Sequence record: NC_047890.1
DNA length: 42,686 nucleotides
Direction: 5' to 3' (one strand)
Source of the DNA: Escherichia phage PGT2
The notes beneath the pieces are model-generated. The model was not told the DNA's origin. It saw only the letters and a list, made by a program, of their open reading frames with translations, and searched no databases. A program made the translations under genes and the position numbers. Position 1 is the first letter of the stretch. Every line of letters begins with the position of its first letter. Positions 1 through 42,686 of this stretch are shown one piece after another.

Positions 1-260
1 TCCAACACAAATGAGGTCGCGTTTCCCCCGTAGGCCCGGCCTTCTGGATGGCTAAATGGCTGGATGGATGGATGGCTGGACGGCTAGACGTTTAGACGGC
101 TAAATGGCCAAATGACCGTAAAAAGGGCCGTGGGCACTGATAGGGTCAATCGGGCTGTAAGCCACGCCAACCGGGGTTTCCGCACATTACTTTATAAGAG
201 AGCTTGTAAGGTGTCTGGCGGCGATCCGTCTACGACGGGAGAAGGAAAGAGACGTGGGGT
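1..260. repeat. Left direct terminal repeat (DTR), 260 bp
   Basis: Bases 1-260 are identical to 42427-42686, checked block by block. The repeat runs to the window edge, so 260 bp is a minimum length. Confidence 0.9.
48..118. repeat. Array of short imperfect ~8-bp repeats (CTRRAYGG-like) inside the terminal repeat
   Basis: ggctaaatgg ctggatgg atggatgg ctggacgg ctagacgt ttagacgg ctaaatgg ccaaatga read directly. Resembles the short repeat series in T7 terminal repeats. Confidence 0.6.
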
Positions 261-1051: not shown

Positions 1052-1088
1052 AAGGGGCGGGGAGTGTATCCTTGCCCCTTTCTTTTTG
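1052..1088 (+). terminator. Rho-independent terminator
   Basis: 12-bp stem aaggggcgggga / tccttgcccctt (two G-U pairs), loop gtgta, then tctttttgt. Confidence 0.6.
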
Positions 1089-1246: not shown

Positions 1247-1442
1247 TAATTTCAACGGCGGGGTAGTGGGAAGACAAGCCGATAAAATAGGATTCCCTCC
1301 ACATGGTCAGTTACCATAGGTCATCCGAGACACCAAACGGAATAACTAACAAGTAGTAACACCGGGGCAAGGAGGCCGCCTCGAAAGAGGAAAGTAGCTG
1401 GTAATGGCGTATGAAGCATTACCCCGGTGAGAAAGAAAGAGA

Positions 1443-1471
1443 TTGACAAGTTCAGAAGTAAGCAGTAAGAT
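1443..1471 (+). promoter_or_regulatory. Candidate sigma70 early promoter (TTGACA-17-TAAGAT)
   Basis: Consensus -35 ttgaca at 1443-1448; -10 taagat at 1466-1471; shares the upstream 18-mer aagaaagagattgacaag with the promoter at 1639. Confidence 0.45.
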
Positions 1472-1638
1472 GTAAATCAAGCAGTACGGGAGGAGGCGCA
1501 ACGGAAGGCGCGACACGGCGGGGAGTGATACAAGGACGCGCCAAAGGGAGAACGGATAGGAACTGCGAACCCTTCCGGATACCCGCTACGGATAGCACAG
1601 TTTGCCGGAGTATGCAGACACGGTAAGCAAGAAAGAGA

Positions 1639-1667
1639 TTGACAAGCTGGACAAGTTACCCGATAAT
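1639..1667 (+). promoter_or_regulatory. Candidate sigma70 early promoter (TTGACA-17-GATAAT)
   Basis: Consensus -35 ttgaca at 1639-1644; -10 gataat at 1662-1667; an RBS and small ORF follow. Confidence 0.55.
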
Positions 1668-1698
1668 AAGCTCAACGAATCGCAACGAGGAGAGAGAA

Positions 1699-1857
1699 AT
1701 GACTTACTACGAATCAGCAGAGAACGAGATGATCACCGCAGCACGCGCAGAAAAAGAAGTGCGCCGCCACGGTTGCAGCGTAGCAGAATTTTACGCAGAC
1801 TGCGGTACTCATGAGGAGTACGACGCACAAGCTGTGTTAGAATGGTTAGGGTACTAA
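1699..1857 (+). CDS. Small acidic early protein (52 aa)
   Basis: ATG at 1699 preceded by SD aggagag; lies downstream of the promoter at 1639; 11 acidic versus 4 K/R residues. Confidence 0.45.
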   Translation: MTYYESAENEMITAARAEKEVRRHGCSVAEFYADCGTHEEYDAQAVLEWLGY

Positions 1858-1878
1858 CAGAAAGTTTGAAGAAATAGG

Positions 1879-1907
1879 TTGACAAGTTAAGCAGTAAGCA
1901 GTAACCT
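1879..1907 (+). promoter_or_regulatory. Candidate sigma70 early promoter (TTGACA-17-TAACCT, weak -10)
   Basis: -35 ttgaca at 1879-1884; the spacer carries two AAGCAGTA copies, paralogous to the promoter at 1443. Confidence 0.35.
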
Positions 1908-2122
1908 AGAAAGCAAGCAGTACAGCAGTATCACAGCAGCCTAGAATAGGTTGAGTCGCACTCGGTGTGAATAGCTGACCTGACAGCGATATGGTTCAGG
2001 GGGGCCGGAGGATAGACAGTGACGTCGCCAATAAGCCCAACAAACGAAAGGTTTGTTAGTGTATCCTCACAGTAGGGTACAGCAACAAACTAACCGTAAA
2101 CGCAACGTAAACGAGGCGCACC

Positions 2123-16332: not shown

Positions 16333-17052
16333 ATGTTGTTAATGCTCTCTGGCGCGATTGGCGCTGGCAAAGATACCTTCGGTGAGTTCCTGTACGACTC
16401 ATTCGACAAGTTCGGCTACAGCGTGGAAGTGGTGAAGTTTGCCGACCCCATTCGTGAAGCTGCATTTAAGCTCGGATTCAATCCAGATGACCGGGCAACC
16501 AAGGAAGTCCCTGCAATACGCCATTATAAACTCTCAGAACTTGATGAGGCCATTTTTACTACTCATACCTGCCTGACACCTTACGAGCGCCGAATGGTCG
16601 CTGTACGAGTTCACCAGAGATTAATTAACATTCGCAAGGAGAAACATGATGGCATCTACAAGCCTGTCGTCAGTACGCGAGAATTTATGCAGGTCGTCGG
16701 TGGGACTGTACGAGACGCTAAAGAAGATTATTACATCCAGCACATGCTTCTCAATACACCAGAATCACGCGTTAACATCTGCACTGATACTCGGTTCATC
16801 AACGAGCAGCGAATTGGGGATTATTCGGTCTACGTTGAGCGCCCAAACAACCCGTTGGCGGTTCATACCCGCGACGCGTCGGAAGCAGCACAAGCGTTGC
16901 TCCGGGGGGCGGCGAAGAAAGTAATCCTGAACAACAGCACTCTGGATAATCTGGCTGAAGAAGCCGATTACGTGGCTACAACATTAATTTCAAAAGGGTA
17001 TTGTGATGACGCAGTTAAAGACGCAGGCGGAACTGGAATCTTTATCGAGTGA
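16333..17052 (+). CDS. P-loop deoxynucleoside monophosphate kinase-like protein
   Basis: N-terminal P-loop MLLMLSGAIGAGKDT resembles T4 dNMP kinase MKLIFLSGVKRSGKDT; strong SD tgagga. Confidence 0.6.
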   Translation: MLLMLSGAIGAGKDTFGEFLYDSFDKFGYSVEVVKFADPIREAAFKLGFNPDDRATKEVPAIRHYKLSELDEAIFTTHTCLTPYERRMVAVRVHQRLINIRKEKHDGIYKPVVSTREFMQVVGGTVRDAKEDYYIQHMLLNTPESRVNICTDTRFINEQRIGDYSVYVERPNNPLAVHTRDASEAAQALLRGAAKKVILNNSTLDNLAEEADYVATTLISKGYCDDAVKDAGGTGIFIE

Positions 17053-18976
17053 GCGCGGTCTTGCCAAGCTGATGGCCGAGTGTGAGCAGGCTGAATCAGC
17101 GGGGCGTGCATCCGGCGCGTTTTATGCCAAGCAGTTGTTAGAGCGTTTTGTTAACCGTATGGCCGAACGTATTGACCACGAGATGGCGAATCCGGGTGCT
17201 GGCCGCGCGAAAGCGCATAAGAAACTGGTCGCTGTGTTTGACTCCAAAGTCACTGCGTTTATTTCTGTATCAACCACATTGAACATGCTGATGGTCAACG
17301 AGCAGACACCGGGCACCAGCCTTAGTCGCGCCCTCGGCAATGCAATGTATAACGAACTGTTCTGTACCACATTCGACGATGCCAACCCGGACCTGTTTCA
17401 CACCATCTGCAAGGACTTGGATAAGCGCCAGAGCAAATCCAGCCGCCACCGCATGACGGTACTGAAGAATCAGGCAGCGAAGAAGGGTATCGCGTGGGAG
17501 AACTGGACCGTCACCGAAATCCTTCAGGTCGGTGAGTGGTGTCTGGATAATCTGGTGTCAGTTGGTCTGTGCGAAACGCATACCGAGGTGTCTCGCGGTA
17601 AGGCGAAGATGTACGTGGAACTGTCCGACGAGGCGCTGGGAATGATTGAGGATACCAAACGTCTGGTGTCCTTCTTCCGGCCCCAGCGCCTCCCGTTCGT
17701 AGAGAAGCCTCTGGACTGGACCGGGATTGTTGGTGGTGGCTACCATACTGCTCGTATGCAGAGTACGATGCCTCGTTGCATCAAAGCCAGCCCGACCCAG
17801 ATGGATGTACTCATAAAGCACCGTGACGACTACAAGGATACGGTGGTGGCGTGCATTAACACTCTGCAATCGGTAGAGTGGCGTATCAACAAGCGTATTC
17901 TGGAAGTGCAGCAGCAGATGTTCCGAGGCTTTGAGCCGAAGAACAAGCCTGATGCTCTGGAGTGTCATAGCAAGGACGTTGAAGAGTGGACCGAGGCAGA
18001 TAAATCTCTACACAGCCACTGGAAGAAGGAAATGGCTCGCTGGTACACAGAGCAGCGTGCAGAGCGTTATGCCGCTTCACGACATGCCTACACGTTGTCA
18101 GTGGCACGAGAGTTCGCTGACTACCCGCGTATCTGGTTCATGTACTTCGCCGACTGGCGCGGGCGTTATTACCCGGCCACCACAGGCATCTCGCCGCAGG
18201 GGACCGACATCTCTAAATCCATGCTGGAGTTCGCCAATGGCAAGCCCATCTCTGACCCAATCGCAGAACAGTTCTTCTTCCTCCTTGGTTCAACTAAATT
18301 CGGATTCGACAAAGGCTCTATATCCGAACGAGTTCAGTGGGTTCACAAGAATCACGACCTTATCTTGGCGTGTGCCGACGAACCGCTACTACATACTGAT
18401 TTCTGGTACAGAGAAGCAGATAAGAAGACCCGCTACCAATTTCTGGCATGGTGTTTTGAATATGCTGAATACACGCGGTTCCCAGCTGGATTTGTATCAC
18501 GACTTCCGGTGTCTCTTGATGGCACATGTAATGGCCTACAACACTATTCGGCGATGCTACGAGATTCGGTTGGTGCTAAGGCTACCAACCTGTTACCTGC
18601 TAACCGACCAAACGATATTTACGCGCAAGTCGCAGGCGTTGTCACCAACCTTCTTGAAAGCATGTCACCTGCCGACTTCCCGGCACTGACACGCGAATCT
18701 AAGCCTCTCAGCGTCTATGAGGTGGACTTCTTCCGTAGGGCATGGTTACACCACGGTATCAGCCGTAGCCTCGTTAAACGGTGCGTTATGACGTTACCTT
18801 ACGGGTCCAAGAAGTTCAGCATGGGTCGCTTCATCAAAGGCGACTACATGATGGACATTCACCCGGAAGAGTTCGACACCGACGACTACACCGACGCAAA
18901 GTATGTTCCCGCCAGACCAGAGTTCGGTGACCTCGATTTAGAGCAGGTCAATCACTCCGAATACTTCTTCCTGTAG
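17006..18976 (+). CDS. T7-like single-subunit RNA polymerase, apparently lacking the C-terminal ~190 aa (motif C and C-terminus)
   Basis: PLDWTGIVGGGY, DWRGRYY...PQGTD, FLAWCFEYA, LDGTCNGLQHYSAMLRD (motif A) and VMTLPYGSKKF (motif B) align with T7 RNAP; the ORF stops about 50 residues after motif B. Confidence 0.85.
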   Translation: MTQLKTQAELESLSSERGLAKLMAECEQAESAGRASGAFYAKQLLERFVNRMAERIDHEMANPGAGRAKAHKKLVAVFDSKVTAFISVSTTLNMLMVNEQTPGTSLSRALGNAMYNELFCTTFDDANPDLFHTICKDLDKRQSKSSRHRMTVLKNQAAKKGIAWENWTVTEILQVGEWCLDNLVSVGLCETHTEVSRGKAKMYVELSDEALGMIEDTKRLVSFFRPQRLPFVEKPLDWTGIVGGGYHTARMQSTMPRCIKASPTQMDVLIKHRDDYKDTVVACINTLQSVEWRINKRILEVQQQMFRGFEPKNKPDALECHSKDVEEWTEADKSLHSHWKKEMARWYTEQRAERYAASRHAYTLSVAREFADYPRIWFMYFADWRGRYYPATTGISPQGTDISKSMLEFANGKPISDPIAEQFFFLLGSTKFGFDKGSISERVQWVHKNHDLILACADEPLLHTDFWYREADKKTRYQFLAWCFEYAEYTRFPAGFVSRLPVSLDGTCNGLQHYSAMLRDSVGAKATNLLPANRPNDIYAQVAGVVTNLLESMSPADFPALTRESKPLSVYEVDFFRRAWLHHGISRSLVKRCVMTLPYGSKKFSMGRFIKGDYMMDIHPEEFDTDDYTDAKYVPARPEFGDLDLEQVNHSEYFFL

Positions 18977-19062
18977 TACCCGGCCAAGGATGGCTACCTT
19001 CCCTCTCTATTTCGTCACCTACAATAGCACACAATACCCTCAAACTGTTCTTCTTGAACACT

Positions 19063-19095
19063 AGCCTTGGCCTCTTTGGTCAGGGCTATTTTTTC
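19063..19095 (+). terminator. Rho-independent terminator downstream of the RNA polymerase ORF
   Basis: 10-bp stem agccttggcc / ggtcagggct (two G-U pairs), loop tcttt, then attttttc. Confidence 0.65.
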
Positions 19096-19139
19096 TGATT
19101 TAGGGTATTTGTTAAATATGGCTTGAAGCCTTGATATAT

Positions 19140-19169
19140 GGGGTTTCCGCACATTATTTTAATAAGGGG
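19140..19169 (+). promoter_or_regulatory. Conserved 28-bp element GGGGTTTCCGCACATTAYTTTA(A)TAAGRG; candidate phage promoter or other regulatory site
   Basis: Near-identical copies at 173-200 and 42599-42626 (inside the terminal repeats); first 17 nt identical, then 1 mismatch and 1 indel. Confidence 0.4.
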
Positions 19170-19509
19170 TCCGGAGGGTGTTAAAATGTTCCTTAAATTT
19201 TACTTTGGTTAATTTCTAAGTTAAGCGAAAGCCAACTTAGTAAGGTAAGAGATTATTACCGGATTAGTGGTCCATACCGTAGTGAGTTAGAAAGACTACA
19301 TTCCCGGATTAGTGAGTTAGAGGGTGCTCTTTCCTCCTCAGAGTCTGTACCAGAACCTGTTACAGAAATATTCAGTAGAATGAACTATGAGGTGTACGAA
19401 TACTTTGAGCGTACAGTAAGTAATACTTCTGTAGCTAGTTCTACTACTGATTTAGAAGCTGGGTTTAAATTAGGTGTCCAGCATGTTCTCGCCAAGTTGA
19501 GGAATGGGT

Positions 19510-19938
19510 ATGTCACACCGCGAAGTCTCTGATTCTGATTGGGTAGCTAGTGTTCCTAAGTTGGTTGAGGCTATTTGCAACTCACCCAGCAGGATGATAT
19601 GTGATATTGACGTAGAGGCTACTCTGGCTCATTTTATGGCCGTAGCCACTCGTGGTGGTGCGTATATTGTCAAGGAGAAGTATCTGGTCGTATTCGACCG
19701 CTACAAGCTCTGGTATGCACCTACCAAGGATATTATCGAAGAGAAGATTGTCCTGTGTATTTACCCAGAAAATCCCGGCTCAATGTTCGATGTTGTCCGA
19801 TTTCTAATTGAACAACGTGATTACCTTGAAGCGAATCACTTGGTCATAGGTGACTTCCTGCACACTAATCAGGAAAAGTATGGTCGAGTCCTAACTAAAT
19901 TAGGGTTGACCAAAATCAACTCAGTTTACGCATGTTAG
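19510..19938 (+). CDS. Hypothetical protein (143 aa) in a compositionally atypical region
   Basis: SD gagga 6 nt before ATG 19510 (ATG 19504 is too close to the SD); no recognisable motif; region is more AT-rich than neighbours. Confidence 0.5.
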   Translation: MSHREVSDSDWVASVPKLVEAICNSPSRMICDIDVEATLAHFMAVATRGGAYIVKEKYLVVFDRYKLWYAPTKDIIEEKIVLCIYPENPGSMFDVVRFLIEQRDYLEANHLVIGDFLHTNQEKYGRVLTKLGLTKINSVYAC

Positions 19939-19948
19939 GAGGTTCCCA

Positions 19949-20551
19949 ATGGGAGGCTTACTCGGTGGCGGCGATAACGGTAAATCTCAAGCAAAGGCTA
20001 CCCGTGAAGCTGCCGAACGTCAGGCACAGGCAACATTGCAGGCCGCACGGGAGCAGATAGAGGCTCAGAACCGTCAGGCGGCTGCACAGCAACAATGGTC
20101 CAGTCAACAGGCCGCGCAACAGCGTGAGTTTGAGGCCCAGCTAAATCAGACCAATCAAGAATACCAATCAACCCTACAGGCACAACAGCTTGCTCAGCAG
20201 AAAGCACTCACTGAACAGACTAACGCCATTAACAAGGCGTATCAGGACAAGATGGCTAGTCTGCAACAGCAGGCCAACGAACAGCAGCAGTTTGAGTACA
20301 CCCAGCAGCTTTTACAGTCTTCCGCAGACGCACAGCGCCAGCAGGCACTGAAGGAAGCGCAGGATGCTACTTGGATGCCGCAGGAACAGGTTGAGGTTAC
20401 TCTGGCCGCAGATAGCTCTACGTATCTGGACGAGCAACGTCGTAGACGTCCCGTGAGCAACCTATACAATGGTGCAGGCAACGTGAACACGGCTTCGGCG
20501 AATGGGCAGTCTACGAGTGGCACAGGGCTTTCTAGTGGATTGAGGATTTAA
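19949..20551 (+). CDS. Gln/Ala-rich coiled-coil protein (200 aa), probable virion or assembly protein
   Basis: Strong SD aggagg; low-complexity Q/A-rich sequence; first gene of the structural block. Confidence 0.55.
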   Translation: MGGLLGGGDNGKSQAKATREAAERQAQATLQAAREQIEAQNRQAAAQQQWSSQQAAQQREFEAQLNQTNQEYQSTLQAQQLAQQKALTEQTNAINKAYQDKMASLQQQANEQQQFEYTQQLLQSSADAQRQQALKEAQDATWMPQEQVEVTLAADSSTYLDEQRRRRPVSNLYNGAGNVNTASANGQSTSGTGLSSGLRI

Positions 20552-20552
20552 T

Positions 20553-21491
20553 ATGACCGATGATGAAGCTCGCCAACTTGCTCAATGGGGCGAGGATGAA
20601 ATTGCCCGGATACTCGGACTGAACAGAAACTCATATTTGTCGGCACAGGGTCAGTCAGTAGCGGATTGGTCCAGCCGCTGGTCTTCCGGTCTAAATGACA
20701 TTTCTGGATATTATGACCAAGGTAAGGCTAACTCCCTGTACGCATCCCTTGGTGGGACTACATCGTCCACGTACCTTAACCAGTTGTCGATGCTGGCAGA
20801 GGAATCCAACAAGCTCTACACCTTAATTAATAACCCTAACGCAGTACACTCCAAGCTCCGGGAAGAGGCCGGGAGGCAAGGCGGTGTCGCGCAGTTCTCT
20901 ATCGGTATGGGTTATCGTACTGAAGGTAACGGTGGTTACGTTTACGACCTGATGGGCAACAGATTCAACGACATAACGATGAGTCCGCTGTACAAATCCT
21001 TGTATAGCATGGTTGATAGTTTTAGCAATCAGCAGGGTAAAATCGTCAATGAGTTGAACGCACAGCAGGGCCGTGAGCAGAACTATATCAGTCAGATTAG
21101 TGGTTTATTGCAGCAGGGTACGTTAGCAAAGACCAAAGCTGAACAGGAAGCTCAGAGGAAGGCGCTTGAAGAGCAGTATGCACAGCAACAGGAAGAATTG
21201 AACAAACAGGCTGCAGAGAATGCACGTATCCTCAAGGAGAAGCAGGAAGCTCAGACCAAGATGTTCAACGAGTCCGCTAAGGTTACGGCGGAATCCAACG
21301 CAGCGACATCCCAGCTTCAACAGGCCAAATCTGCTGCCACTCAGGTAGCCAATGTAGGTTCAGCCCGTGGTGGTGAGGCAATATCCTCAACCAACGCAGC
21401 CGCTAAATCAAAGACCAGACAAACCACGCGTACTGAACGCTGGCAGTCAACCCGCTCCCCAGCCGCTGGCGGTGGCGGCATCAACGTTTAA
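20553..21491 (+). CDS. Hypothetical virion-associated protein (312 aa) with Q/E-rich coiled-coil segment
   Basis: SD gagga; coiled-coil-like segment KTKAEQEAQRKALEEQYAQQQEELNKQAAE; immediately upstream of portal. Confidence 0.55.
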   Translation: MTDDEARQLAQWGEDEIARILGLNRNSYLSAQGQSVADWSSRWSSGLNDISGYYDQGKANSLYASLGGTTSSTYLNQLSMLAEESNKLYTLINNPNAVHSKLREEAGRQGGVAQFSIGMGYRTEGNGGYVYDLMGNRFNDITMSPLYKSLYSMVDSFSNQQGKIVNELNAQQGREQNYISQISGLLQQGTLAKTKAEQEAQRKALEEQYAQQQEELNKQAAENARILKEKQEAQTKMFNESAKVTAESNAATSQLQQAKSAATQVANVGSARGGEAISSTNAAAKSKTRQTTRTERWQSTRSPAAGGGGINV

Positions 21492-21502
21492 CAGGAGCTA
21501 TC

Positions 21503-23056
21503 ATGACCAACGCAGACAACGCTGTACAATCAACCGTTACAGCGCCGTCTCGCTGGACTGAACTTGACGGGCAGAGACGTAGCCTAGTGCGTCGGTGGGA
21601 GTCGTATTCCATCTACACCATCCCCTACATCTGCCCTGATGAGAACTACCAGCAGGACACGGATGAAATGACCCACGACTTCCAAGCAGTGGGCGCACAA
21701 GCCGTGAACAGTCTCGCCAACAAAATCATGTTAGCTCTGTTCGCACCATCCAGACCATTCTTCAAACTCGACCCGGATGATGACACCAAGGAAGAGTTGA
21801 TGAAGGTTGGTATCGACCCAGACGCATTGAAAGATGTGTTCTCATCCTTGGAACTTCAGAGCGCAAAGCTGCTGGATACCAAGAATTTCCGCCCGGTAAT
21901 GTTCGAAATCATCAAGTCACTCATCGTCACTGGCAATAGCCTGATGGACTTAGGTAACGAAGTGGCATATGTCCGGGTACGTGATTTTGTAGTGAAGCGT
22001 GACTACTACGGTCGCCCATGCGAAATCATGATTAAGACCTGCCTCAAATTTGAGCAGTTGACCATGGACGTTCAGGAATCCTGCCAGCAGAAGAAGCCGC
22101 ATGGATACACCCCTGACACGAAGGTGGACGTTTACCGTTGGTACAAAGTGGATGAGACGGGTAAACGTATGAAGATGACTTACTGGATAGATGACCTCTC
22201 TCTGGAAGATGGCAAGTATCAAGGGGATTGGAAGAGGGAAGATTGTCCCGTCCGCCCACTGACTTGGTGTCTTACTGCGAATGCCGACTACGGAACTGGT
22301 CTGGTAGAGGAATACGCTGGCGACTTCGCCGCGCTATCCACGATGTCAACCTCTTTCGTTCAGGGTAGTGTTCTCGCTTCCGAGTTCCGCTGGCTCTCCA
22401 ACCCGGCTGGTATGACCCAACCGGAAGATGTCCGCGACTCAAATAACGGTGCAGTAATTCCCGGCGTCGAAGGCGACCTATCCCTTATCTCTGCTGGTCA
22501 GGGTATGGGGCAGACTCTCCAGATGATGATGAACGGGATGGACATCTACACCCGACGTATCAGTCAAGGATTCTTGATGATGTCCGGTGTTACCCGCGAT
22601 GCAGAACGTGTGACCGCCGAAGAGATTCGGATGCAGGCCAACGAACTGGAGAACTCGCTGGGTGGAGCGTATAGCCGACTGGCTATCGACATGCAGCTTC
22701 CAATTGCCAACTGGCTTCTGGATATGCAAGACCTGTCCATCAAAGGCGTCAAGATGAACGTATCCATCGTGACTGGCCTCAACGCACTGTCTCGTAATGG
22801 CGACCTTGATAATCTCAATGCTGCCGTAGGCAATATCACCGCAATGTACCAGATGCCGCCGTTGGCTATGCGACTGCTCAAAATGGATGCAGTCATCTCC
22901 GACATCATGGCAGGCCACGGCCTGTTGGCAGCCCGGTACGTCAAAACTCAAGCTGAAGTTGCTCAAGAAGAACAGCAGGCTCAACAGCAGGCTCTTGCTC
23001 AACAAGGCGCGGCAAACGTGGTAGACCAAGCCACGATGCCTCAACAACCAATGTGA
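21503..23056 (+). CDS. Portal (head-tail connector) protein
   Basis: AVGAQAVNSLANKIMLALF matches T7 gp8 AVGARGLNNLASKLMLALF; size and position fit. Confidence 0.85.
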   Translation: MTNADNAVQSTVTAPSRWTELDGQRRSLVRRWESYSIYTIPYICPDENYQQDTDEMTHDFQAVGAQAVNSLANKIMLALFAPSRPFFKLDPDDDTKEELMKVGIDPDALKDVFSSLELQSAKLLDTKNFRPVMFEIIKSLIVTGNSLMDLGNEVAYVRVRDFVVKRDYYGRPCEIMIKTCLKFEQLTMDVQESCQQKKPHGYTPDTKVDVYRWYKVDETGKRMKMTYWIDDLSLEDGKYQGDWKREDCPVRPLTWCLTANADYGTGLVEEYAGDFAALSTMSTSFVQGSVLASEFRWLSNPAGMTQPEDVRDSNNGAVIPGVEGDLSLISAGQGMGQTLQMMMNGMDIYTRRISQGFLMMSGVTRDAERVTAEEIRMQANELENSLGGAYSRLAIDMQLPIANWLLDMQDLSIKGVKMNVSIVTGLNALSRNGDLDNLNAAVGNITAMYQMPPLAMRLLKMDAVISDIMAGHGLLAARYVKTQAEVAQEEQQAQQQALAQQGAANVVDQATMPQQPM

Positions 23057-23065
23057 GGGTAATTC

Positions 23066-23986
23066 ATGACCGTATCAACTCCGTCAACTCCGGTACAACA
23101 AGCAGCAGCCCCAGCGGCTGCTCCGGCACCACAAGCTCCGGCACAGAGCGGCATCCCGTATGTTCCGCCTGCCCCTGTAGCTCCGGCTGCTCCGGTGGAA
23201 GCACCGCAAGCAACGCTTGACCCGAATCAATTCGCTAACCCGTCTCAGGCAGGCATCCCCGCCGCCTCGGTACAGCAGCCAGCACCGCAGTCTCCACCGC
23301 AGGCTCCCGTAGAGCCGCCAGCACAGCAGACGCCATCGCAGGCAGAATTAACGCTGACAGAGAAACCGCTGTACAAGCACGAGCCTACTGGCAACGTTGC
23401 TTATGATATGGCTATGAATGCCTTCGCAGCTAAGGGATTCTCCCCGGACCACCCTGCGTTCGTCCCGGCATCCAAAGGTGACTTCTCCGCACTGGAGGCG
23501 TTCGTCAAGGAGCAAGGCATCGACCCGCAATATCTGGCACTGGCTCAACAGGCGTACATCCAGATTTCTGAGCACCACAACGCCACTCATGGCGAGACTA
23601 TCAAGAAAGCATTGGAAGTCGCTGGTGGTCAGGAACGCTGGAACAAGGTGCAGGCGTGGGTGCAGGATGTTGCCAGCCCGGAAGAGATTACTTACTACAA
23701 ACAGCAGCTTGAAGCTGGTGGTGTTGCCACCCTGAAGGCTGTGGAATACCTGTCCGGCCTGTACGGACAACATGCAGAGAATGCCCCGGCCCAGCCGAGT
23801 GAATCACCTGCTACCCCGTTCAATACCAATTCGTCACCTACAATAGCAACTAACGGTGCCCCGATTTCCCCGCAAGAATTTCGGGCAGAACTGTCTCGTC
23901 TCATTGACAAGGTAGGGTACTCCGGTCTGGAAACCTCACCGGAATACAAAGCGTTGCAACAACGTCGTCAGGCGTGGCGCGGGTAA
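23066..23986 (+). CDS. Capsid assembly (scaffolding) protein with Pro/Ala/Gln-rich N-terminal region
   Basis: Located between portal and major capsid, 306 aa; assigned by synteny only. Confidence 0.6.
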   Translation: MTVSTPSTPVQQAAAPAAAPAPQAPAQSGIPYVPPAPVAPAAPVEAPQATLDPNQFANPSQAGIPAASVQQPAPQSPPQAPVEPPAQQTPSQAELTLTEKPLYKHEPTGNVAYDMAMNAFAAKGFSPDHPAFVPASKGDFSALEAFVKEQGIDPQYLALAQQAYIQISEHHNATHGETIKKALEVAGGQERWNKVQAWVQDVASPEEITYYKQQLEAGGVATLKAVEYLSGLYGQHAENAPAQPSESPATPFNTNSSPTIATNGAPISPQEFRAELSRLIDKVGYSGLETSPEYKALQQRRQAWRG

Positions 23987-24035
23987 CATACATCCCTCCC
24001 GTCCTGCCGTAATCTTTGCTTAGAAGGAAACATAA

Positions 24036-25019
24036 ATGGCCTTACCAACTTGGACTCCTACCCGTCCTAACCAACAGAACCAAGCAGGTTCTGTGAATGC
24101 TCTCATCATCGAAGAGTTCACGGGCATCGTTGAGCACACTATTAAGCGTAAGCAGGTGCTGGCCCCGTTTATCCCGATGCGTACCATTCGTGGTACTAAC
24201 ACCCTGACCAACTATGCGGTCGGCAACACCACTCTCGGCACTGTAACCACTGGTACTGAACCAGCGGAAACTTCTGGCCCGGATGTATCCCGCAACTTCT
24301 TGGTTGTGGATACTCACGTCTATGCACGTAACTCCATCGGTCTGCTGGAAACCTTCCAGAGCACCATCGACATCCGTCGTGAGATTGCAATTGAGCATGG
24401 CGAAACCATGTCCAAGTTTACTGACCAAGCCTTCTTCATTCAGGCGGTCAAAGCGGCTCGTGCTGTTCAGAGTTCTTACTCTGGTGGTACTGCTAGTAAA
24501 CCGGGTGGCTTCGGCGTGGGTAACGTCCAGACTCTGGCTGCGGCTGGTGACGAACTGGATGGCACCAAGCTGTACAAAGCAATCAGCAACCTGTTCGTGA
24601 AGATGGAACAGCAGGACGTGCAGCCGAATATGGATGGTATGGTACTTGCTCTGGTTCCGTCTGCGTTCTATGCGCTGCTGGATGCTGAGCAGATTATCAA
24701 CGGTAACTATGTTACTGCTGATGGTACCAGCGTGTCCGGTATGGTGTTTAAGGCGTTCGGTGTGCCTGTTGTTAAATCCAACAACATCCCGACCACCAAC
24801 GTCACCTCTCACCCGCTGGGTGCGAACTACACTGGCGACTTCTCCAAAGTTGTCGGCGTGGTCCTGTCTCCGAAAGCCCTGATGGCTGGTGAGACTATCC
24901 CGCTCCAGAGCGACCTGTTCTACGACAAGCTGCGTAAGACTTGGTACGTGGACTCCGAGCGTGCATTCGGTGTTGCACCGAACCGCAACGAATACGCTGG
25001 CGTTATTGAGAAAGCGTAA
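24036..25019 (+). CDS. Major capsid protein
   Basis: Synteny (after scaffold, followed by a terminator), strong RBS, 327 aa; loose similarity to remembered T7 gp10A. Confidence 0.8.
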   Translation: MALPTWTPTRPNQQNQAGSVNALIIEEFTGIVEHTIKRKQVLAPFIPMRTIRGTNTLTNYAVGNTTLGTVTTGTEPAETSGPDVSRNFLVVDTHVYARNSIGLLETFQSTIDIRREIAIEHGETMSKFTDQAFFIQAVKAARAVQSSYSGGTASKPGGFGVGNVQTLAAAGDELDGTKLYKAISNLFVKMEQQDVQPNMDGMVLALVPSAFYALLDAEQIINGNYVTADGTSVSGMVFKAFGVPVVKSNNIPTTNVTSHPLGANYTGDFSKVVGVVLSPKALMAGETIPLQSDLFYDKLRKTWYVDSERAFGVAPNRNEYAGVIEKA

Positions 25020-25026
25020 TCCAACT

Positions 25027-25059
25027 AGCCTCTACCTTAATTGGTAGGGGCTATTTTTC
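25027..25059 (+). terminator. Rho-independent terminator after the major capsid gene
   Basis: Stem agcctctacc / ggtaggggct (one G-U pair), loop ttaatt, then atttttcc. Confidence 0.65.
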
Positions 25060-25083
25060 CTAAAGTATTCAGAGGAACTTTTC

Positions 25084-25698
25084 ATGGGTAATATCACGAA
25101 GTTGACTGTGGTCAACGAATGCCTGAAGACTATGGGAGAGGTTCCTCTGAATACCTTGGTTAACGAGGACCACCCGTACATTGCAGCGGCATTATCCGCG
25201 CTTGATTTGGCTCTTATCCGAGAACTCTCCTTACCGTGGTGGTTCAATACTGAGTATTGCACCCTGCATCCCGACAGCATCACAAAGAAGATTGTTCTCC
25301 CGCAGAACTGTCTCGACATCGACCCCCGTTCCGGCACCGGGTATCTGGTAGCCCGTGGTCGATACCTCTTTGACCGTATGAAGCAGAGCTACGAGTTCGA
25401 TGGTCCAGAGGAAGTCCGGTACACGTCATTTATTGAGTTTGATGACCTGCCGATGCTGTTCAAGATGTACGTGATGTATTCTGCGGTACTGGACTTCTGT
25501 TCCAGCTTTGATGCAGATGAACAACGCGTACAGGAAGTGAACATGAAATATGCAGCTTCTCGTGTGACCGTGAAGTCAGCCGATACCCGCAACAAGGACA
25601 TCAACATGTTCCAGCAGGTGAGCACTTCTACCAAACTTAACCGTATTGCTTGGCCGGGTACAACCGCTGTCCGAGCACGTAACGCAATGAGACGATAA
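25084..25698 (+). CDS. Tail tubular protein A
   Basis: Synteny with T7 gp11 (directly after capsid and its terminator) and similar size (204 aa). Confidence 0.7.
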   Translation: MGNITKLTVVNECLKTMGEVPLNTLVNEDHPYIAAALSALDLALIRELSLPWWFNTEYCTLHPDSITKKIVLPQNCLDIDPRSGTGYLVARGRYLFDRMKQSYEFDGPEEVRYTSFIEFDDLPMLFKMYVMYSAVLDFCSSFDADEQRVQEVNMKYAASRVTVKSADTRNKDINMFQQVSTSTKLNRIAWPGTTAVRARNAMRR

Positions 25699-35714: not shown

Positions 35715-35743
35715 GGTGGGCTTCGGCCCACCTCTATTTTATT
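35715..35743 (+). terminator. Rho-independent terminator between the gp16-like gene and the tail fiber gene
   Basis: Perfect 7-bp stem ggtgggc / gcccacc with loop ttcg, then tctattttatt. Confidence 0.6.
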
Positions 35744-35753
35744 GGAGATTTTG

Positions 35754-38516
35754 ATGGCTATTACGTTTTATGCTACCAACAACTTCACTGGTGATGGTAC
35801 TACCGTAAACTGGAATATTAACTTCGCAGACGGTTATATCGACATCACCACCGTGAAGGCGCGGTATCTGGATAATACCGGGAGCTACGTTGACATCGCT
35901 ATTTCAAGCGTGGCAGGAAACGTAGTAACCATTTCCCCGGCTGTGGCGGACGGTCAGGAGTTCCAAATCTATCGTGATACAGAGAAGCGGTTCCCGCTGG
36001 TGGACTTCTCTGACGGTGCAATCCTCAACGAGACTAACCTTGACACGCTGGCTACTCAAGCTGTGATGGTGTCTGCTGAGGCATTCGACCAGTCTAACAA
36101 CGGTGTGCGTATCGCAGGTGATTCCTTGGTTGTTGCACAGGGTATCGACGCCAAGGCACAGGAAGCTCTGGACAACTCCGAGGCTGCTGTAGCTACAGCG
36201 AACGGTATCGACGGTAAAGCGCAGACGGCATTGAATACCGCCGCCGCCGCTGTCGCCACGGCTAATGCTGCCACATCTACTGCTGCTGGTGCTGTATCTA
36301 CGGCCAACACCGCACTGTCTACTGCCCACGATGCCGCCGATGACGCAGCTACCGCTATCACTACCGCTAACGGCGCTGTGATTACGGCCAATGCTGCAAC
36401 CACTACGGCCAACGCCGCTAGTGCTGCCGCCTCTGCTGCAACGACTACTGCGAACAGTGCTGCAAACGACGCTGCTACTGCTGTGTCTACTGCGGGTACG
36501 GCCTTGTCTACTGCGAACACCGCATCTACCAACGCCTCTACCGCTGTGTCCACGGCTAACGGCGCTAAGGCTACTGCTGAGGGTATCGAGGCTAAAGCGG
36601 ATTCTGCTTTGGCAGCCTCTGCTACCGCTGTGTCCACAGCTAACTCAGCCGAGGCTACGGCCAACGCTATCGACGGTAAGGCTACGGACGCATTAGACAC
36701 TGCCGACTCCGCTGTGGCTACGGCTAACGCTGCTGTTTCTACGGCTAACTCTGCTACTGCTACGGCTAATGCTGCCTCTTCTACTGCGAGTTCGGCTGCC
36801 TCTGACGCCAGTACCGCCTTGAGCACAGCTAATGCTATTGACGCAAAGGCACAGACTGCTTTGGATAATACCACGGCTCTGGATGCGGCCACCATGAAGA
36901 AAGCCGCCAACTTATCTGATATTGCGGATAAGGCGGCTGCATGGCTTAACGTCCGTCCTATTGGCTCCACGCCATTGGCAGGCGACCCGGTAGGGGATTA
37001 CGATGCTGTTACTAAGCGTTGGGTAGAGAACCTGATTAACACAGGTACTGTCGGTCCAACCATGAACGGGGTGATGAACTTCGGCGTCGGTGACTTCCAT
37101 CTCCGGGATAGCCGCGCGTACATCCAGCCTTATGAGGTTGTCTCTGACGGTCAGTTACTGAACCGCGCTGACTGGCCTGAACTTTGGGCCTACGCCCAAA
37201 TGCTGTCGCCTATAACGGATGCAGCTTGGTTGGCAGACCCTCTCAAGCGCGGCGCTTACTCTACCGGAAACGGAACCACTACCTTCCGAGTACCGGATAG
37301 GAACGGTGTTCAGTCAGGCTCTGTAAGGGCGCTTTTTGGGCGTGGTGACGGTGGGAACTCTTCTATCGGCAGTACCATCATGGAGTCCTTCGTACCGAAT
37401 ATCACGGCTACGTTAAATATGCACGGTGCTGGTCCCGCATCAGAACCTGCCGCTGGTACTAACGTGGCAGGATTTGGTGGTGCCTTGGTTGCTACGGGAG
37501 AGGCTCTCCCGAGATACCTGCGTGGGGTTACTCTGTTATCTGCTGGTGGTAACTCCTATGGTGGAGCTACCTTCGATGCCTCCCGTTCCAGTGCTGCTTA
37601 TGGTCGTGGTGGTCTGACTACGGATGAGGTTCTGCCGCGTAACTTCACTGGTGTATGGGTAATTCGTGCATCTGGCGGCTTCGTAGCGGCTAATACGCAG
37701 TGGCAGGTTATAAACCAAGATGCGACTAGGCCCGGTAACGGTACTGCCGTCTTAGGTGGTAATATTGTATCTGAGTACCGCGTTGGTGGTGCCTTGGAGG
37801 GTACAGCAAACTTCCGTATGGCGGGTACTATCGATGGTTCGTATGGCGCGCGCATTGCTGTTTATAATGCCACATCTTTAAATGGCGCCAGCTTCGATTT
37901 TACAGAGCACGGGAACATAGAGACTCCCCTTGGTAGGGCTATTGTTATAGGCAACTATGGTATAGGTTCGCAAGCAGATGCTATACCTACTTCGAGGGAT
38001 AACGCATTTATCTCTAACGCTGATAGTAATAGTTCTTGGTCTGCTTCTAACGGGGGTGGCTTTCAAATTACATATGCAGCTAACCGTATCGTCCAGTTCT
38101 GGGTAAGTCAAGGTGGTACTACGGCTTATTTCCGTGCTAATAGCACAGACAGTAACCCCCAACGACCGAAGTCTGCATCTCCTTGGGTCACACTCCAGAA
38201 TGCTGGTACTTCGGACGCTAATGTAAAAACCGTCCTCGGTGACTTAGACTTATCTATACCGTTGAGTAATATCAACGCACTGGAGTTTAAGAAATTCCGC
38301 TACAACAAGGATGGTGAGGATGGCCCGGTTCGACGGGGCATTATCGCGCAGCAGGCGCAGAATGTGGACCCGGAGTACGTACATTCTGCGGATAAGTCCG
38401 GGGTTATGACTCTTGATAGTAACCCGCTGCTGTTGGATGCTCTAGCTGCTGTCAAAGCACTATCTGCTAAAGTGGCCGCTCTGGAAGAGCGTATTGATGA
38501 ACTAACTTCTCAGTAA
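35754..38516 (+). CDS. Tail fiber protein: T7 gp17-like N-terminal adaptor, Ala/Thr/Ser-rich repeat shaft, C-terminal intramolecular chaperone domain
   Basis: N-terminus LVDFSDGAILNETNLDTLATQAVMVSAEA parallels T7 gp17 [29 protein letters not shown]; C-terminus GIIAQQAQ...LAAVKALSAKVAALEERIDELT is chaperone-like; ORF track start 35742 is a TTG. Confidence 0.8.
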   Translation: MAITFYATNNFTGDGTTVNWNINFADGYIDITTVKARYLDNTGSYVDIAISSVAGNVVTISPAVADGQEFQIYRDTEKRFPLVDFSDGAILNETNLDTLATQAVMVSAEAFDQSNNGVRIAGDSLVVAQGIDAKAQEALDNSEAAVATANGIDGKAQTALNTAAAAVATANAATSTAAGAVSTANTALSTAHDAADDAATAITTANGAVITANAATTTANAASAAASAATTTANSAANDAATAVSTAGTALSTANTASTNASTAVSTANGAKATAEGIEAKADSALAASATAVSTANSAEATANAIDGKATDALDTADSAVATANAAVSTANSATATANAASSTASSAASDASTALSTANAIDAKAQTALDNTTALDAATMKKAANLSDIADKAAAWLNVRPIGSTPLAGDPVGDYDAVTKRWVENLINTGTVGPTMNGVMNFGVGDFHLRDSRAYIQPYEVVSDGQLLNRADWPELWAYAQMLSPITDAAWLADPLKRGAYSTGNGTTTFRVPDRNGVQSGSVRALFGRGDGGNSSIGSTIMESFVPNITATLNMHGAGPASEPAAGTNVAGFGGALVATGEALPRYLRGVTLLSAGGNSYGGATFDASRSSAAYGRGGLTTDEVLPRNFTGVWVIRASGGFVAANTQWQVINQDATRPGNGTAVLGGNIVSEYRVGGALEGTANFRMAGTIDGSYGARIAVYNATSLNGASFDFTEHGNIETPLGRAIVIGNYGIGSQADAIPTSRDNAFISNADSNSSWSASNGGGFQITYAANRIVQFWVSQGGTTAYFRANSTDSNPQRPKSASPWVTLQNAGTSDANVKTVLGDLDLSIPLSNINALEFKKFRYNKDGEDGPVRRGIIAQQAQNVDPEYVHSADKSGVMTLDSNPLLLDALAAVKALSAKVAALEERIDELTSQ
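36100..36900. repeat. Imperfect tandem codon repeats (STAN/ATAN units) inside the tail fiber gene
   Basis: About 16 copies of nCyACnGCnAAy (encoding x-T-A-N) at roughly 7-, 11- and 14-residue spacing. Confidence 0.7.
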
Positions 38517-42426: not shown

Positions 42427-42686
42427 TCCAACACAAATGAGGTCGCGTTTCCCCCGTAGGCCCGGCCTTCTGGATGGCTAAATGGCTGGATGGATGGATG
42501 GCTGGACGGCTAGACGTTTAGACGGCTAAATGGCCAAATGACCGTAAAAAGGGCCGTGGGCACTGATAGGGTCAATCGGGCTGTAAGCCACGCCAACCGG
42601 GGTTTCCGCACATTACTTTATAAGAGAGCTTGTAAGGTGTCTGGCGGCGATCCGTCTACGACGGGAGAAGGAAAGAGACGTGGGGT
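42427..42686. repeat. Right direct terminal repeat (DTR), 260 bp
   Basis: Exact copy of 1-260. Confidence 0.9.

What the first reader, a model, noticed from the sequence alone, without database searches (positions are those of the whole stretch)
19063..25059. Two terminators share the same 3' arm and U-tract (GGGCTATTTTT)
The terminator after the RNAP ORF (19063-19095) and the one after the capsid gene (25027-25059) both end in GG(G)GCTATTTTT(T/C)C. This suggests a common origin or a recognition element beyond the hairpin, comparable to the T7 late terminator.
Basis: seen in the sequence. Interest (0 to 1): 0.25.

Follow-up and report, generated by a model that had tools for sequence, protein, structure and literature searches.

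The report
Two related phage transcription terminators
Two hairpin terminators in a T7-like coliphage genome are versions of one conserved design, each sitting downstream of a copy of the phage's own promoter; this is mostly ordinary, apart from one terminator lying only 35 bases after its promoter.

Summary
The window is a complete phiKT-like coliphage genome (Ermolevavirus, Autographiviridae). T1 (19062-19088 + T6) and T2 (25026-25053 + T5) share both arms, not only the 3' arm. Both are 11-bp stems; 8 pairs are identical, including a U·G wobble, and 3 differ while keeping pairing. This similarity is beyond chance (0.08% of pair-shuffled controls).

In 13 related genomes or contigs both sites always carry a perfect hairpin plus T-run. 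The stem tops turn over compensatorily, while the base G3-5(C)TA-T5-6-C persists. They are class I (intrinsic-type) terminators. T2 is the positional analogue of T7 Tφ, but shows no sequence homology to it, and no class II signal is present.

New context: a T7-like promoter motif, TTCGTCACCTACAATAGCA, occurs exactly twice, 35 nt upstream of T1 and about 190 nt upstream of the capsid gene. The two copies co-vary within genomes (1/720 permutations); the terminators do not (303/720).

A shared origin or shared constraint is supported. A polymerase-specific recognition element is not. T1 is probably a promoter-proximal partial terminator, giving a possible ~68-nt RNA.

Aside: this genome's RNA polymerase gene carries a 498-nt in-frame deletion that removes the catalytic motif C.

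The parts
17003..18976 (+). RNA polymerase gene (657 aa here; 821-833 aa in all relatives). It carries an in-frame 498-nt deletion with its junction near 18896-18900.
   Evidence: relatives
18982..18995 (+). Small hairpin H0 just after the polymerase stop (GGCCA-agga-TGGCT), with no T-run. It co-varies in L063 (GGGGCTA-tgga-TGGCCCC).
19009..19029 (+). Pphi1, a T7-like phage promoter motif ATTTCGTCACCTACAATAGCA, with putative +1 at G19027.
19032..19042 (+). Invariant block CAATACCCTCA in the putative leader. It shares ATACCCTCAA with the 3-copy promoter of Caulobacter phage Cd1.
19046..19060 (+). Small conserved hairpin TGTTC-ttctt-GAACA; GTTC...TTGAAC is invariant in relatives.
19062..19088 (+). 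T1 hairpin, an 11-bp stem with a 5-nt loop.
19089..19095 (+). T1 U-tract (T6) followed by C.
19115..19161 (+). Element D (core GGGGTTTCCGCACATTATTTTA, 19140-19161), repeated in the terminal repeat. Function unknown.
148..194 (+). Copy of element D inside the 260-bp direct terminal repeat (also at 42574-42620).
23828..23848 (+). Pphi2, the second copy of the promoter motif (AATTCGTCACCTACAATAGCA), inside the 3' end of the scaffold gene. Putative +1 is G23846, 190 nt before the capsid ATG.
24036..25019 (+). Major capsid protein gene.
25026..25053 (+). T2 hairpin, an 11-bp stem with a 6-nt loop.
25054..25060 (+). T2 U-tract (T5) followed by CC.
25084..25698 (+). Tail tubular protein A gene, the first gene that depends on read-through of T2.
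35715..35732 (+). Another sense-strand terminator-like hairpin (GGTGGGC-ttcg-GCCCACC, then TCTATTTTAT). It does not share the T1/T2 stem base.
1052..1080 (+). Terminator-like hairpin in the left-end region (12 bp, then TCTTTTTG). It does not share the T1/T2 stem base.

Best explanation
T1 and T2 are two class I (intrinsic-type) transcription terminators built on one conserved template: a G-rich 3' arm ending in GGG(G)CUA, then U5-6, then C, with the complementary UAGCC at the 5' base.

Shown here:
- Both are stable hairpins with T-runs on the sense strand of a one-strand genome.
- Both positions carry a perfect hairpin plus T-run in every relative examined.
- The tops of the stems change by compensatory substitutions while the base and tract persist.
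- Each terminator is the first one downstream of one of the only two copies of a T7-like promoter motif.

Inferred, for T2. Transcripts started by the phage polymerase at Pphi2 run through the capsid gene. A fraction end at T2, giving abundant capsid mRNA as in the T7 phi10-gene 10-Tφ unit. The rest read through into the tail, internal-protein, terminase and lysis genes, for which no further promoter copy was found.

Inferred, for T1. It ends the transcripts that carry the polymerase gene. Because Pphi1 lies 35 nt upstream of it, it also acts as a promoter-proximal partial terminator (attenuator) on the first late transcription unit. That would yield a ~68-nt RNA whenever it fires.

Inferred, for the shared sequence. 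It reflects common ancestry plus purifying selection on the part of an intrinsic terminator that matters most, the bottom pairs and the U-rich tract. It is not a polymerase-specific recognition motif.
For: - Structure and statistics of the two hairpins.
- Identity of the genome (phiKT-like, 96%) and gene order.
- T1 orthologues. The hairpin is identical in phiKT, L059 and L060. L062 and L089 keep TAGCC(T/C)...AGGGCTA-T5-6-C with different tops (for L062, for L089). L090, L093 and L063 keep ...GGG(A)TA-T5-6-C on other bases.
- T2 orthologues. There are 12 distinct hairpins in 14 loci, all with perfect stems. The base TAGCC...GGGGCTA-T5-6-C is retained down to 56% polymerase identity (L092).
- More distant relatives and the literature. 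A post-capsid terminator is present in L047-L050, L002, phiKMV and GAP227 and is described for JG068, LIMEzero, the KP34 group and LUZ100.
- Promoter motif. There is a 19-nt exact repeat at 19011-19029 and 23830-23848. It matches T7 phi10 positions -10..+1 at 8/11, and at 10/11 in L062. The two copies change together within genomes: the true pairing is the best of 720 permutations.
- Class I terminators stop both bacterial and phage polymerases, and only partially. Single-molecule efficiencies were 54% for T7 polymerase at Tφ and 12-86% over the eight polymerase-terminator pairs tested.
Against: - There are no transcript 3'-end or 5'-end data for this phage or for phiKT. Both termination and the promoter assignment are predictions.
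- A promoter directly upstream of an efficient terminator looks wasteful. T1 may be ignored by the phage polymerase, as I recall for T7 TE, or the motif at 19009-19029 may not fire.
- Element D, downstream of T1, could be the promoter that actually drives the late genes.
- More distant relatives (Cd1, PSTNGR1, Scott, GAP227, phiKMV) show no post-polymerase terminator by a simple scan. T1 is therefore confined to this clade.
- The window's own polymerase gene lacks motif C, so this particular genome could not make an active enzyme.
Confidence: 0.7

Rival explanations
1. The shared GGGCUAUUUUU is a sequence-specific termination or pause signal read by the phage polymerase, a recognition element beyond the hairpin comparable to T7 class II signals.
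For: UA immediately before the T-run, and C after it, are kept in T1 and T2 of nearly all relatives, even where the UA cannot pair (T1 of L063 and L090). CTATTTTT occurs only at T1 and T2 in the window, and CTATTTT also follows the 35715 hairpin.
Against: - No HATCTGTT lies at or near either site.
- The stem base itself varies among relatives with 70-75% identical polymerases (CCCGCC, TCCCGG, ACCCGAC).
- T1-T2 pairs show no genome-specific co-variation (303 of 720 permutations), whereas the promoters do (1 of 720).
- UA-U5-6 is adequately explained as an 8-9-nt U-rich tract.
Confidence: 0.1
2. Pphi1 plus T1 form a small-RNA gene. This would be a ~68-nt transcript (G19027-U19094) made by the phage polymerase, whose conserved single-stranded 5' region (CAAUACCCUCA) acts in trans.
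For: The promoter-leader-hairpin-terminator layout is conserved in nine genomes. The predicted fold is a 19-nt unpaired 5' region, a small hairpin, then a terminator with a U-tail. CAATACCCTCA and GTTC...TTGAAC are invariant in non-coding DNA. [quoted passage not shown]
Against: That complementarity is absent in L062 and L063, although the 'seed' there is unchanged. The duplex energy is no better than that of shuffled seeds scanned over the genome. The invariant block could equally be a DNA signal, since it matches the core of the Cd1 promoter. No expression data exist.
Confidence: 0.15
3. T1 works only on the host polymerase. It ends early and middle transcription after the polymerase gene (as I recall for T7 TE), while the phage polymerase starting at Pphi1 ignores it. 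Its resemblance to T2 is then historical only.
For: Strong sigma-70-type promoters lie at 1443-1928, and no strong sense-strand terminator lies between them and T1. As I recall from the T7 literature, phage promoters lie upstream of TE and T7 polymerase reads through it. This arrangement would explain why a promoter can sit upstream of T1.
Against: T1 and T2 are nearly the same hairpin with the same tract. If T2 stops the phage polymerase, as its Tφ-like position implies, T1 should do so too. Class I terminators act on both enzyme types.
Confidence: 0.2
4. The resemblance is coincidental: two unrelated G-C-rich hairpins with T-runs that happen to look alike.
For: All intrinsic terminators share a G-rich 3' arm and a T-run. 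The motif ACTAGCC...GGGCTATTTTT also turns up in about 40 unrelated viral contigs.
Against: Only 0.08% of pair-shuffled hairpins reach the observed alignment score. Only 1 of 595 unrelated terminator pairs shares 6 or more basal pairs. The same base recurs at both sites in L062 and L089.
Confidence: 0.04

Closest known systems
T7 late terminator Tφ (class I terminator after gene 10)
   Same: T2 lies immediately after the major capsid gene and before tail tubular protein A. It is a stable hairpin with G·U pairs followed by a U-run. A phage promoter lies upstream of the capsid gene, and downstream genes must rely on read-through.
   Different: There is no sequence homology: alignment score 15 against a null mean of 14.9. 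The stem is shorter (11 bp against about 15 bp). A UA sits between the G-rich arm and the U-run. The polymerase is only about 34% identical to T7's over the C-terminal region compared. T1 has no T7 counterpart at this spacing from a promoter.
Post-capsid terminators of phiKMV-like and related Autographiviridae (phiKMV, GAP227, KP34 group, JG068, LIMEzero, LUZ100)
   Same: The position and type are the same. The polymerase gene sits at the end of the DNA-metabolism block, directly before the structural genes.
   Different: The sequences are unrelated. Of those whose sequence I scanned, phiKMV and GAP227 showed no terminator after the polymerase gene by a simple scan. Neither T1 nor T2 is annotated in the phiKT record.
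T7 early terminator TE
   Same: T1 lies at the end of the block that contains the polymerase gene and is presumably read by the host polymerase. As in T7 (from my own knowledge of the literature), a phage promoter lies upstream of it.
   Different: In T7 a whole gene separates the nearest upstream promoter from TE; here the gap is 35 nt. Whether the host polymerase reaches T1 was not tested.
Lambda PR'-tR' (6S RNA) late-gene attenuator
   Same: A late promoter is followed within tens of bases by an intrinsic terminator, just upstream of the late genes.
   Different: No antiterminator is known or predicted here. The polymerase is a single-subunit enzyme. This is an analogy in layout only.

Membership tests
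Class I (intrinsic, hairpin-dependent) terminator | G-C-rich RNA hairpin on the transcribed strand | tested here: met
   Both stems are 11 bp with 6 G-C pairs. Free energies are -19.0 and -19.6 kcal/mol, z about -5.
Class I (intrinsic, hairpin-dependent) terminator | U-rich tract immediately 3' of the hairpin | tested here: met
   T6 (19089-19094) and T5 (25054-25058) directly follow the stems.
Class I (intrinsic, hairpin-dependent) terminator | Pairing maintained in evolution through compensatory changes | tested here: met
   All 20 distinct T1/T2 orthologous hairpins have unbroken stems despite different sequences.
Class I (intrinsic, hairpin-dependent) terminator | RNA 3' ends in the U-tract during transcription | not testable with these tools
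   No transcript-end data are available for this phage group.
T7 Tφ-type late terminator | Located directly after the major capsid gene, before the tail tubular genes | tested here: met
   Met by T2 only: 7 nt after the capsid stop and 24 nt before the tail tubular A start.
T7 Tφ-type late terminator | Capsid gene driven by its own phage-polymerase promoter | tested here: inconclusive
   A T7-like motif lies 190 nt upstream and co-varies with its second copy. Transcription starts are not mapped.
T7 Tφ-type late terminator | Sequence homology to T7/T3 Tφ | tested here: not met
   Alignment score 15 against a null of 14.9 +/- 2.4.
T7 class II terminator / pause signal | Conserved HATCTGTT followed by a T-rich stretch | tested here: not met
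   Three matches in the window, none near T1 or T2, and no more than chance.
Trans-acting small RNA with intrinsic terminator | Own promoter, unpaired conserved region, terminator hairpin with U-tail | tested here: inconclusive
   The layout is present and conserved. The promoter and the RNA are unverified.
Trans-acting small RNA with intrinsic terminator | Conserved complementarity to a target | tested here: not met
   The 11-nt match to the polymerase gene start region occurs only in the closest relatives and is not above shuffled controls.

The most novel reading that the evidence does not exclude
The conserved module Pphi1 - invariant leader - small hairpin - T1 is a functional unit of its own. 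It would be a promoter-proximal terminator that gates the late genes of a T7-like phage, analogous in layout to lambda PR'-tR'. It might also produce an abundant ~68-nt RNA made by the phage polymerase, possibly with a regulatory role. No such unit has, to my knowledge, been described for a single-subunit phage RNA polymerase.
Probability: 0.25. Interest if true: 0.6.

Novelty: new member of a known kind. Interest (0 to 1): 0.28.

Why it matters
It matters only modestly. It provides an unannotated transcription map for the phiKT group: two copies of a T7-like promoter and two related terminators. That map predicts how a phage with very few promoters sets the ratio of capsid to other late proteins by partial termination.

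The comparative series also shows which parts of a terminator evolve freely (stem top and loop) and which are held (bottom pairs, UA-U5-6-C). That is useful for choosing or designing terminators for orthogonal phage polymerases.

The one unusual point is a terminator conserved 35 nt downstream of a promoter. It can be tested directly with a single transcript-end mapping experiment on phiKT.

Tried and rejected
- Sequence homology of T1 or T2 to T7 Tφ: rejected, scores at the null mean. The shared AACTAGC before T2 and Tφ is treated as chance.
- Class II signal HATCTGTT: absent.
- Rfam: no family matches anywhere in the window.
- Collection-wide scan for ACTAGCC...GGGCTATTTTT in viral contigs: 43 stretches, almost all unrelated phages. 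In L002 the match sits after a capsid gene but folds differently, so the motif does not mark a family.
- Metagenome scan with the leader pattern: only chance hits plus the contig already held as L062.
- Within-genome concerted evolution of T1 and T2: not found.
- Small-RNA target search: the best hit is the polymerase gene's start region, but it is not conserved and not above controls.
- Depletion of sense-strand T5 runs as indirect support: dropped. T5 runs number 11 against 26.8 expected. A5 runs number 22 against roughly 46 by my own hand calculation from the composition, so they are about equally depleted.
- Presence in complete E. coli genomes (prophage or host origin): no match.
- Six look-ups failed because the service was busy and were repeated later.
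Full report
**What the window is.** The region 18500-25200 is 96% identical to Escherichia phage phiKT (NC_019520; Ermolevavirus, Autographiviridae). The window equals IMG/VR contig IMGVR_UViG_2974667396_000001 and has a 260-bp direct terminal repeat, so it is a complete genome. All genes are on the + strand. The polymerase gene (17003-18976) ends the DNA-metabolism block, and the structural genes follow. Neither terminator is annotated in the phiKT record.

**The observation.** GGGCTATTTTT occurs exactly twice.
- T1 is TAGCCTTGGCC-tcttt-GGTCAGGGCTA followed by TTTTTTC (19062-19095).
- T2 is TAGCCTCTACC-ttaatt-GGTAGGGGCTA followed by TTTTTCC (25026-25060).
- Both fold far better than shuffles, with z about -5.

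The match is larger than reported. ACTAGCCT on the 5' side is shared as well. Eight of 11 pairs are identical, including a U·G wobble, and three pairs differ while keeping pairing. The T1-T2 alignment score of 30 is reached by only 0.08% of T1 versions whose pairs were shuffled with the T-run kept. Among unrelated phage terminator-like hairpins, 1 of 595 pairs shares six basal pairs. Outside the hairpin the two loci do not align convincingly.

**Relatives.** Public phage records hold only phiKT as a close relative. Protein searches with the capsid and the polymerase, followed by contig look-ups, gave genomes and contigs from 97% down to 56% polymerase identity.

T1 in relatives:
- The hairpin is identical in phiKT, L059 and L060.
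- L062 and L089 keep TAGCC(T/C)...AGGGCTA-T5-6-C but have different stem tops (TGTCCA/TGGATA, TATCCA/TGGATA).
- L090, L093 and L063 keep a recognisably homologous 3' arm, TGG(T/A)(C/T)(A/G)GGG(C/A/-)TA-T5-6-C, on other bases.

T2 in relatives:
- It is present in all 14 loci that include the capsid gene's 3' end, as 12 distinct hairpins, each with an unbroken stem.
- The base TAGCC...GGGGCTA-T5-6-C persists down to L092, at 56% polymerase identity.
- phiKT, which is 96% identical to the window overall, has a different stem top and loop at T2 (CCTCAC-ttcg-GTGGGG) on the same base.

RNAalifold on a MAFFT alignment shows the same picture, an invariant base and compensatory changes higher up, although indels blur the register. 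More distant relatives and the literature show that a post-capsid terminator is a standard feature of this phage family. A post-polymerase terminator was not seen in Cd1, PSTNGR1, Scott, GAP227 or phiKMV.

**Context that changes the reading of T1.** A 19-nt sequence, TTCGTCACCTACAATAGCA, occurs exactly twice:
- at 19011-19029, between the polymerase stop and T1;
- at 23830-23848, inside the 3' end of the scaffold gene, 190 nt before the capsid ATG.

Aligned on ATAG, it matches T7 phi10 positions -10 to +1 at 8 of 11. The L062 version, ACCCACTATAG, matches at 10 of 11. In six genomes the two copies change together, for example to CACCCACTATAG in both copies in L062, to CACCTAG(A/T)ATAG in L089, and to CGTCCCCTAATGTAG in L090/L066. 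In L062 the two changes in the coding copy are synonymous. The true within-genome pairing gives the smallest total distance of all 720 permutations. The L090/L066 pairing rests only on the two contigs coming from the same sample. This concerted change is the expected signature of promoters tracking a polymerase's specificity; gene conversion is the alternative. I therefore treat the two sites as phage promoters, Pphi1 (+1 at G19027) and Pphi2 (+1 at G23846). This is an inference, because no transcript starts are mapped.

T2 then closes a promoter-capsid-terminator unit of the T7 phi10-gene 10-Tφ type. T1 lies only 35 nt downstream of Pphi1. The order Pphi1, then the invariant CAATACCCTCA, then a small GTTC/GAAC hairpin, then T1 is kept in nine genomes down to 58% polymerase identity. 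In L092 a terminator precedes the promoter-like motif instead.

**How it most likely works.** Class I terminators act on both bacterial and single-subunit phage polymerases and are only partially efficient. Single-molecule efficiencies were 54% for T7 polymerase at Tφ and 12-86% across the polymerase-terminator pairs tested. No further copy of the promoter motif lies downstream of T2. Unless unrecognised promoters exist, the 17 kb of tail, internal-protein, terminase and lysis genes must therefore be read by polymerases that pass T2. T2 is best seen as an attenuator that raises capsid mRNA over the rest.

T1 would end transcripts carrying the polymerase gene. No strong sense-strand terminator lies between the sigma-70-type early promoters near 1443-1928 and T1. 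T1 would also reduce the flow from Pphi1 into the first late genes, releasing a ~68-nt RNA when it fires.

The shared base and tract are the parts of an intrinsic terminator most exposed to selection. The tops need only pair, which fits the pattern seen. Terminator pairs show no genome-specific co-variation (303 of 720 permutations). The resemblance is therefore inherited or commonly constrained, not tuned genome by genome.

**Rivals.**
- A sequence-specific signal is not supported, for the reasons above and because no class II consensus is present. The retention of UA before the U-run even where it cannot pair (T1 of L063 and L090) remains unexplained. It may simply be part of an 8-9-nt U-rich tract.
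- A small-RNA gene is possible. The predicted RNA has an unpaired conserved 5' region, a small hairpin and a terminator with a U-tail. Its only notable complementarity is 11 nt to the start region of the polymerase gene. That match is confined to the closest relatives and is not above shuffled controls.
- T1 might stop only the host polymerase, as I recall for T7 TE. Its near identity to T2 argues against a large difference between the two.

**Comparison and novelty.** T1 and T2 are members of a known kind, class I terminators of Autographiviridae, and are unannotated in this phage group. T2 is a positional analogue of Tφ but not a sequence relative of it. A conserved terminator placed 35 nt after a phage-polymerase promoter is the only feature I have not seen described.

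**Caveat on this genome.** The window's polymerase lacks phiKT residues 632-797. These align to about T7 residues 674-858 and include the IHD motif with Asp812. All relatives encode 821-833 aa. The first gene after T1 is also frameshifted. Either the genome is defective or the assembly is wrong, so experiments should use phiKT.

Noticed in passing
window 17003-18976 (junction near 18896-18900): The RNA polymerase gene has an in-frame 498-nt deletion relative to phiKT and all other relatives (657 aa against 821-833 aa). It removes the region aligning to about T7 residues 674-858, including the catalytic IHD (Asp812) motif. No obvious microhomology is visible at the junction.
   Followed up: partly
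window 19186-19212: The homologue of phiKT ORF13, the first gene after T1, is truncated after 8 codons by a 1-nt deletion in a T-run (MFLKFYFG* against MFLKFLLWLISK...). The annotated phiKT ORF13 start lies further upstream, inside element D, and is probably too long.
   Followed up: partly
window 19009-19029 and 23828-23848: A T7-like promoter motif is present in exactly two copies (19 nt identical). The copies co-vary within genomes across six relatives. It is not annotated in phiKT.
   Followed up: yes
window 148-194, 19115-19161, 42574-42620: A 47-nt element (core GGGGTTTCCGCACATTAYTTTA) lies in the terminal repeat and again just downstream of T1. It is conserved in relatives, and in L093 it lies upstream of the promoter motif instead. 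Function unknown.
   Followed up: partly
window 19032-19042; L053 (Cd1) 323, 19916, 35242: The invariant CAATACCCTCA between Pphi1 and T1 shares ATACCCTCAA with a 17-27-nt motif. That motif is present three times in intergenic regions of Caulobacter phage Cd1, where it looks like that phage's own promoter.
   Followed up: partly
window 16997-17007 versus 19030-19040: [quoted passage not shown] It is present in the window, phiKT and L059 but not in L062 or L063.
   Followed up: yes
window 18982-18995: A small hairpin lies right after the polymerase stop codon, without a T-run. It shows a compensatory variant in L063.
   Followed up: no
window 1-260 and 42427-42686; 40-110; 258-345: The genome has a 260-bp direct terminal repeat. 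Inside it are runs of GGATGG and GGCTAAATGG-like repeats. Just right of the left copy are CTATCT(A/T)TCT repeats, including two CTATCTTTTT.
   Followed up: no
window 1425-1928: Three similar sigma-70-type promoters (AAGAAAGAGATTGACAAG..., up to 11/12 matches to consensus) resemble the tandem early promoters of T7-like phages.
   Followed up: no
window 25017-25028: The capsid stop TAA is followed three codons later by an in-frame TAG that forms the start of the T2 5' arm (TAA TCC AAC TAG). The same holds in phiKT, L059 and L066 but not in L062 or L064.
   Followed up: no
window 21921-21940: A weaker promoter-like sequence (TCATCGTCACTGGCAATAGCC) lies inside the portal gene. It is conserved in close relatives, but its ATAG is lost in L062.
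   Followed up: no
window 36244-36829: An array with 21-nt periodicity (GCTAC/GCTGC-rich) lies inside the 924-aa tail fibre gene.
   Followed up: no
L092 12473-13132; L059 4490-5877: Relatives carry extra cargo in the same interval. L092 has a 660-nt post-polymerase region containing a tRNA-like sequence (...GGTTCGAATCC...CCA). L059 has two HNH endonuclease genes between the polymerase and portal genes.
   Followed up: no
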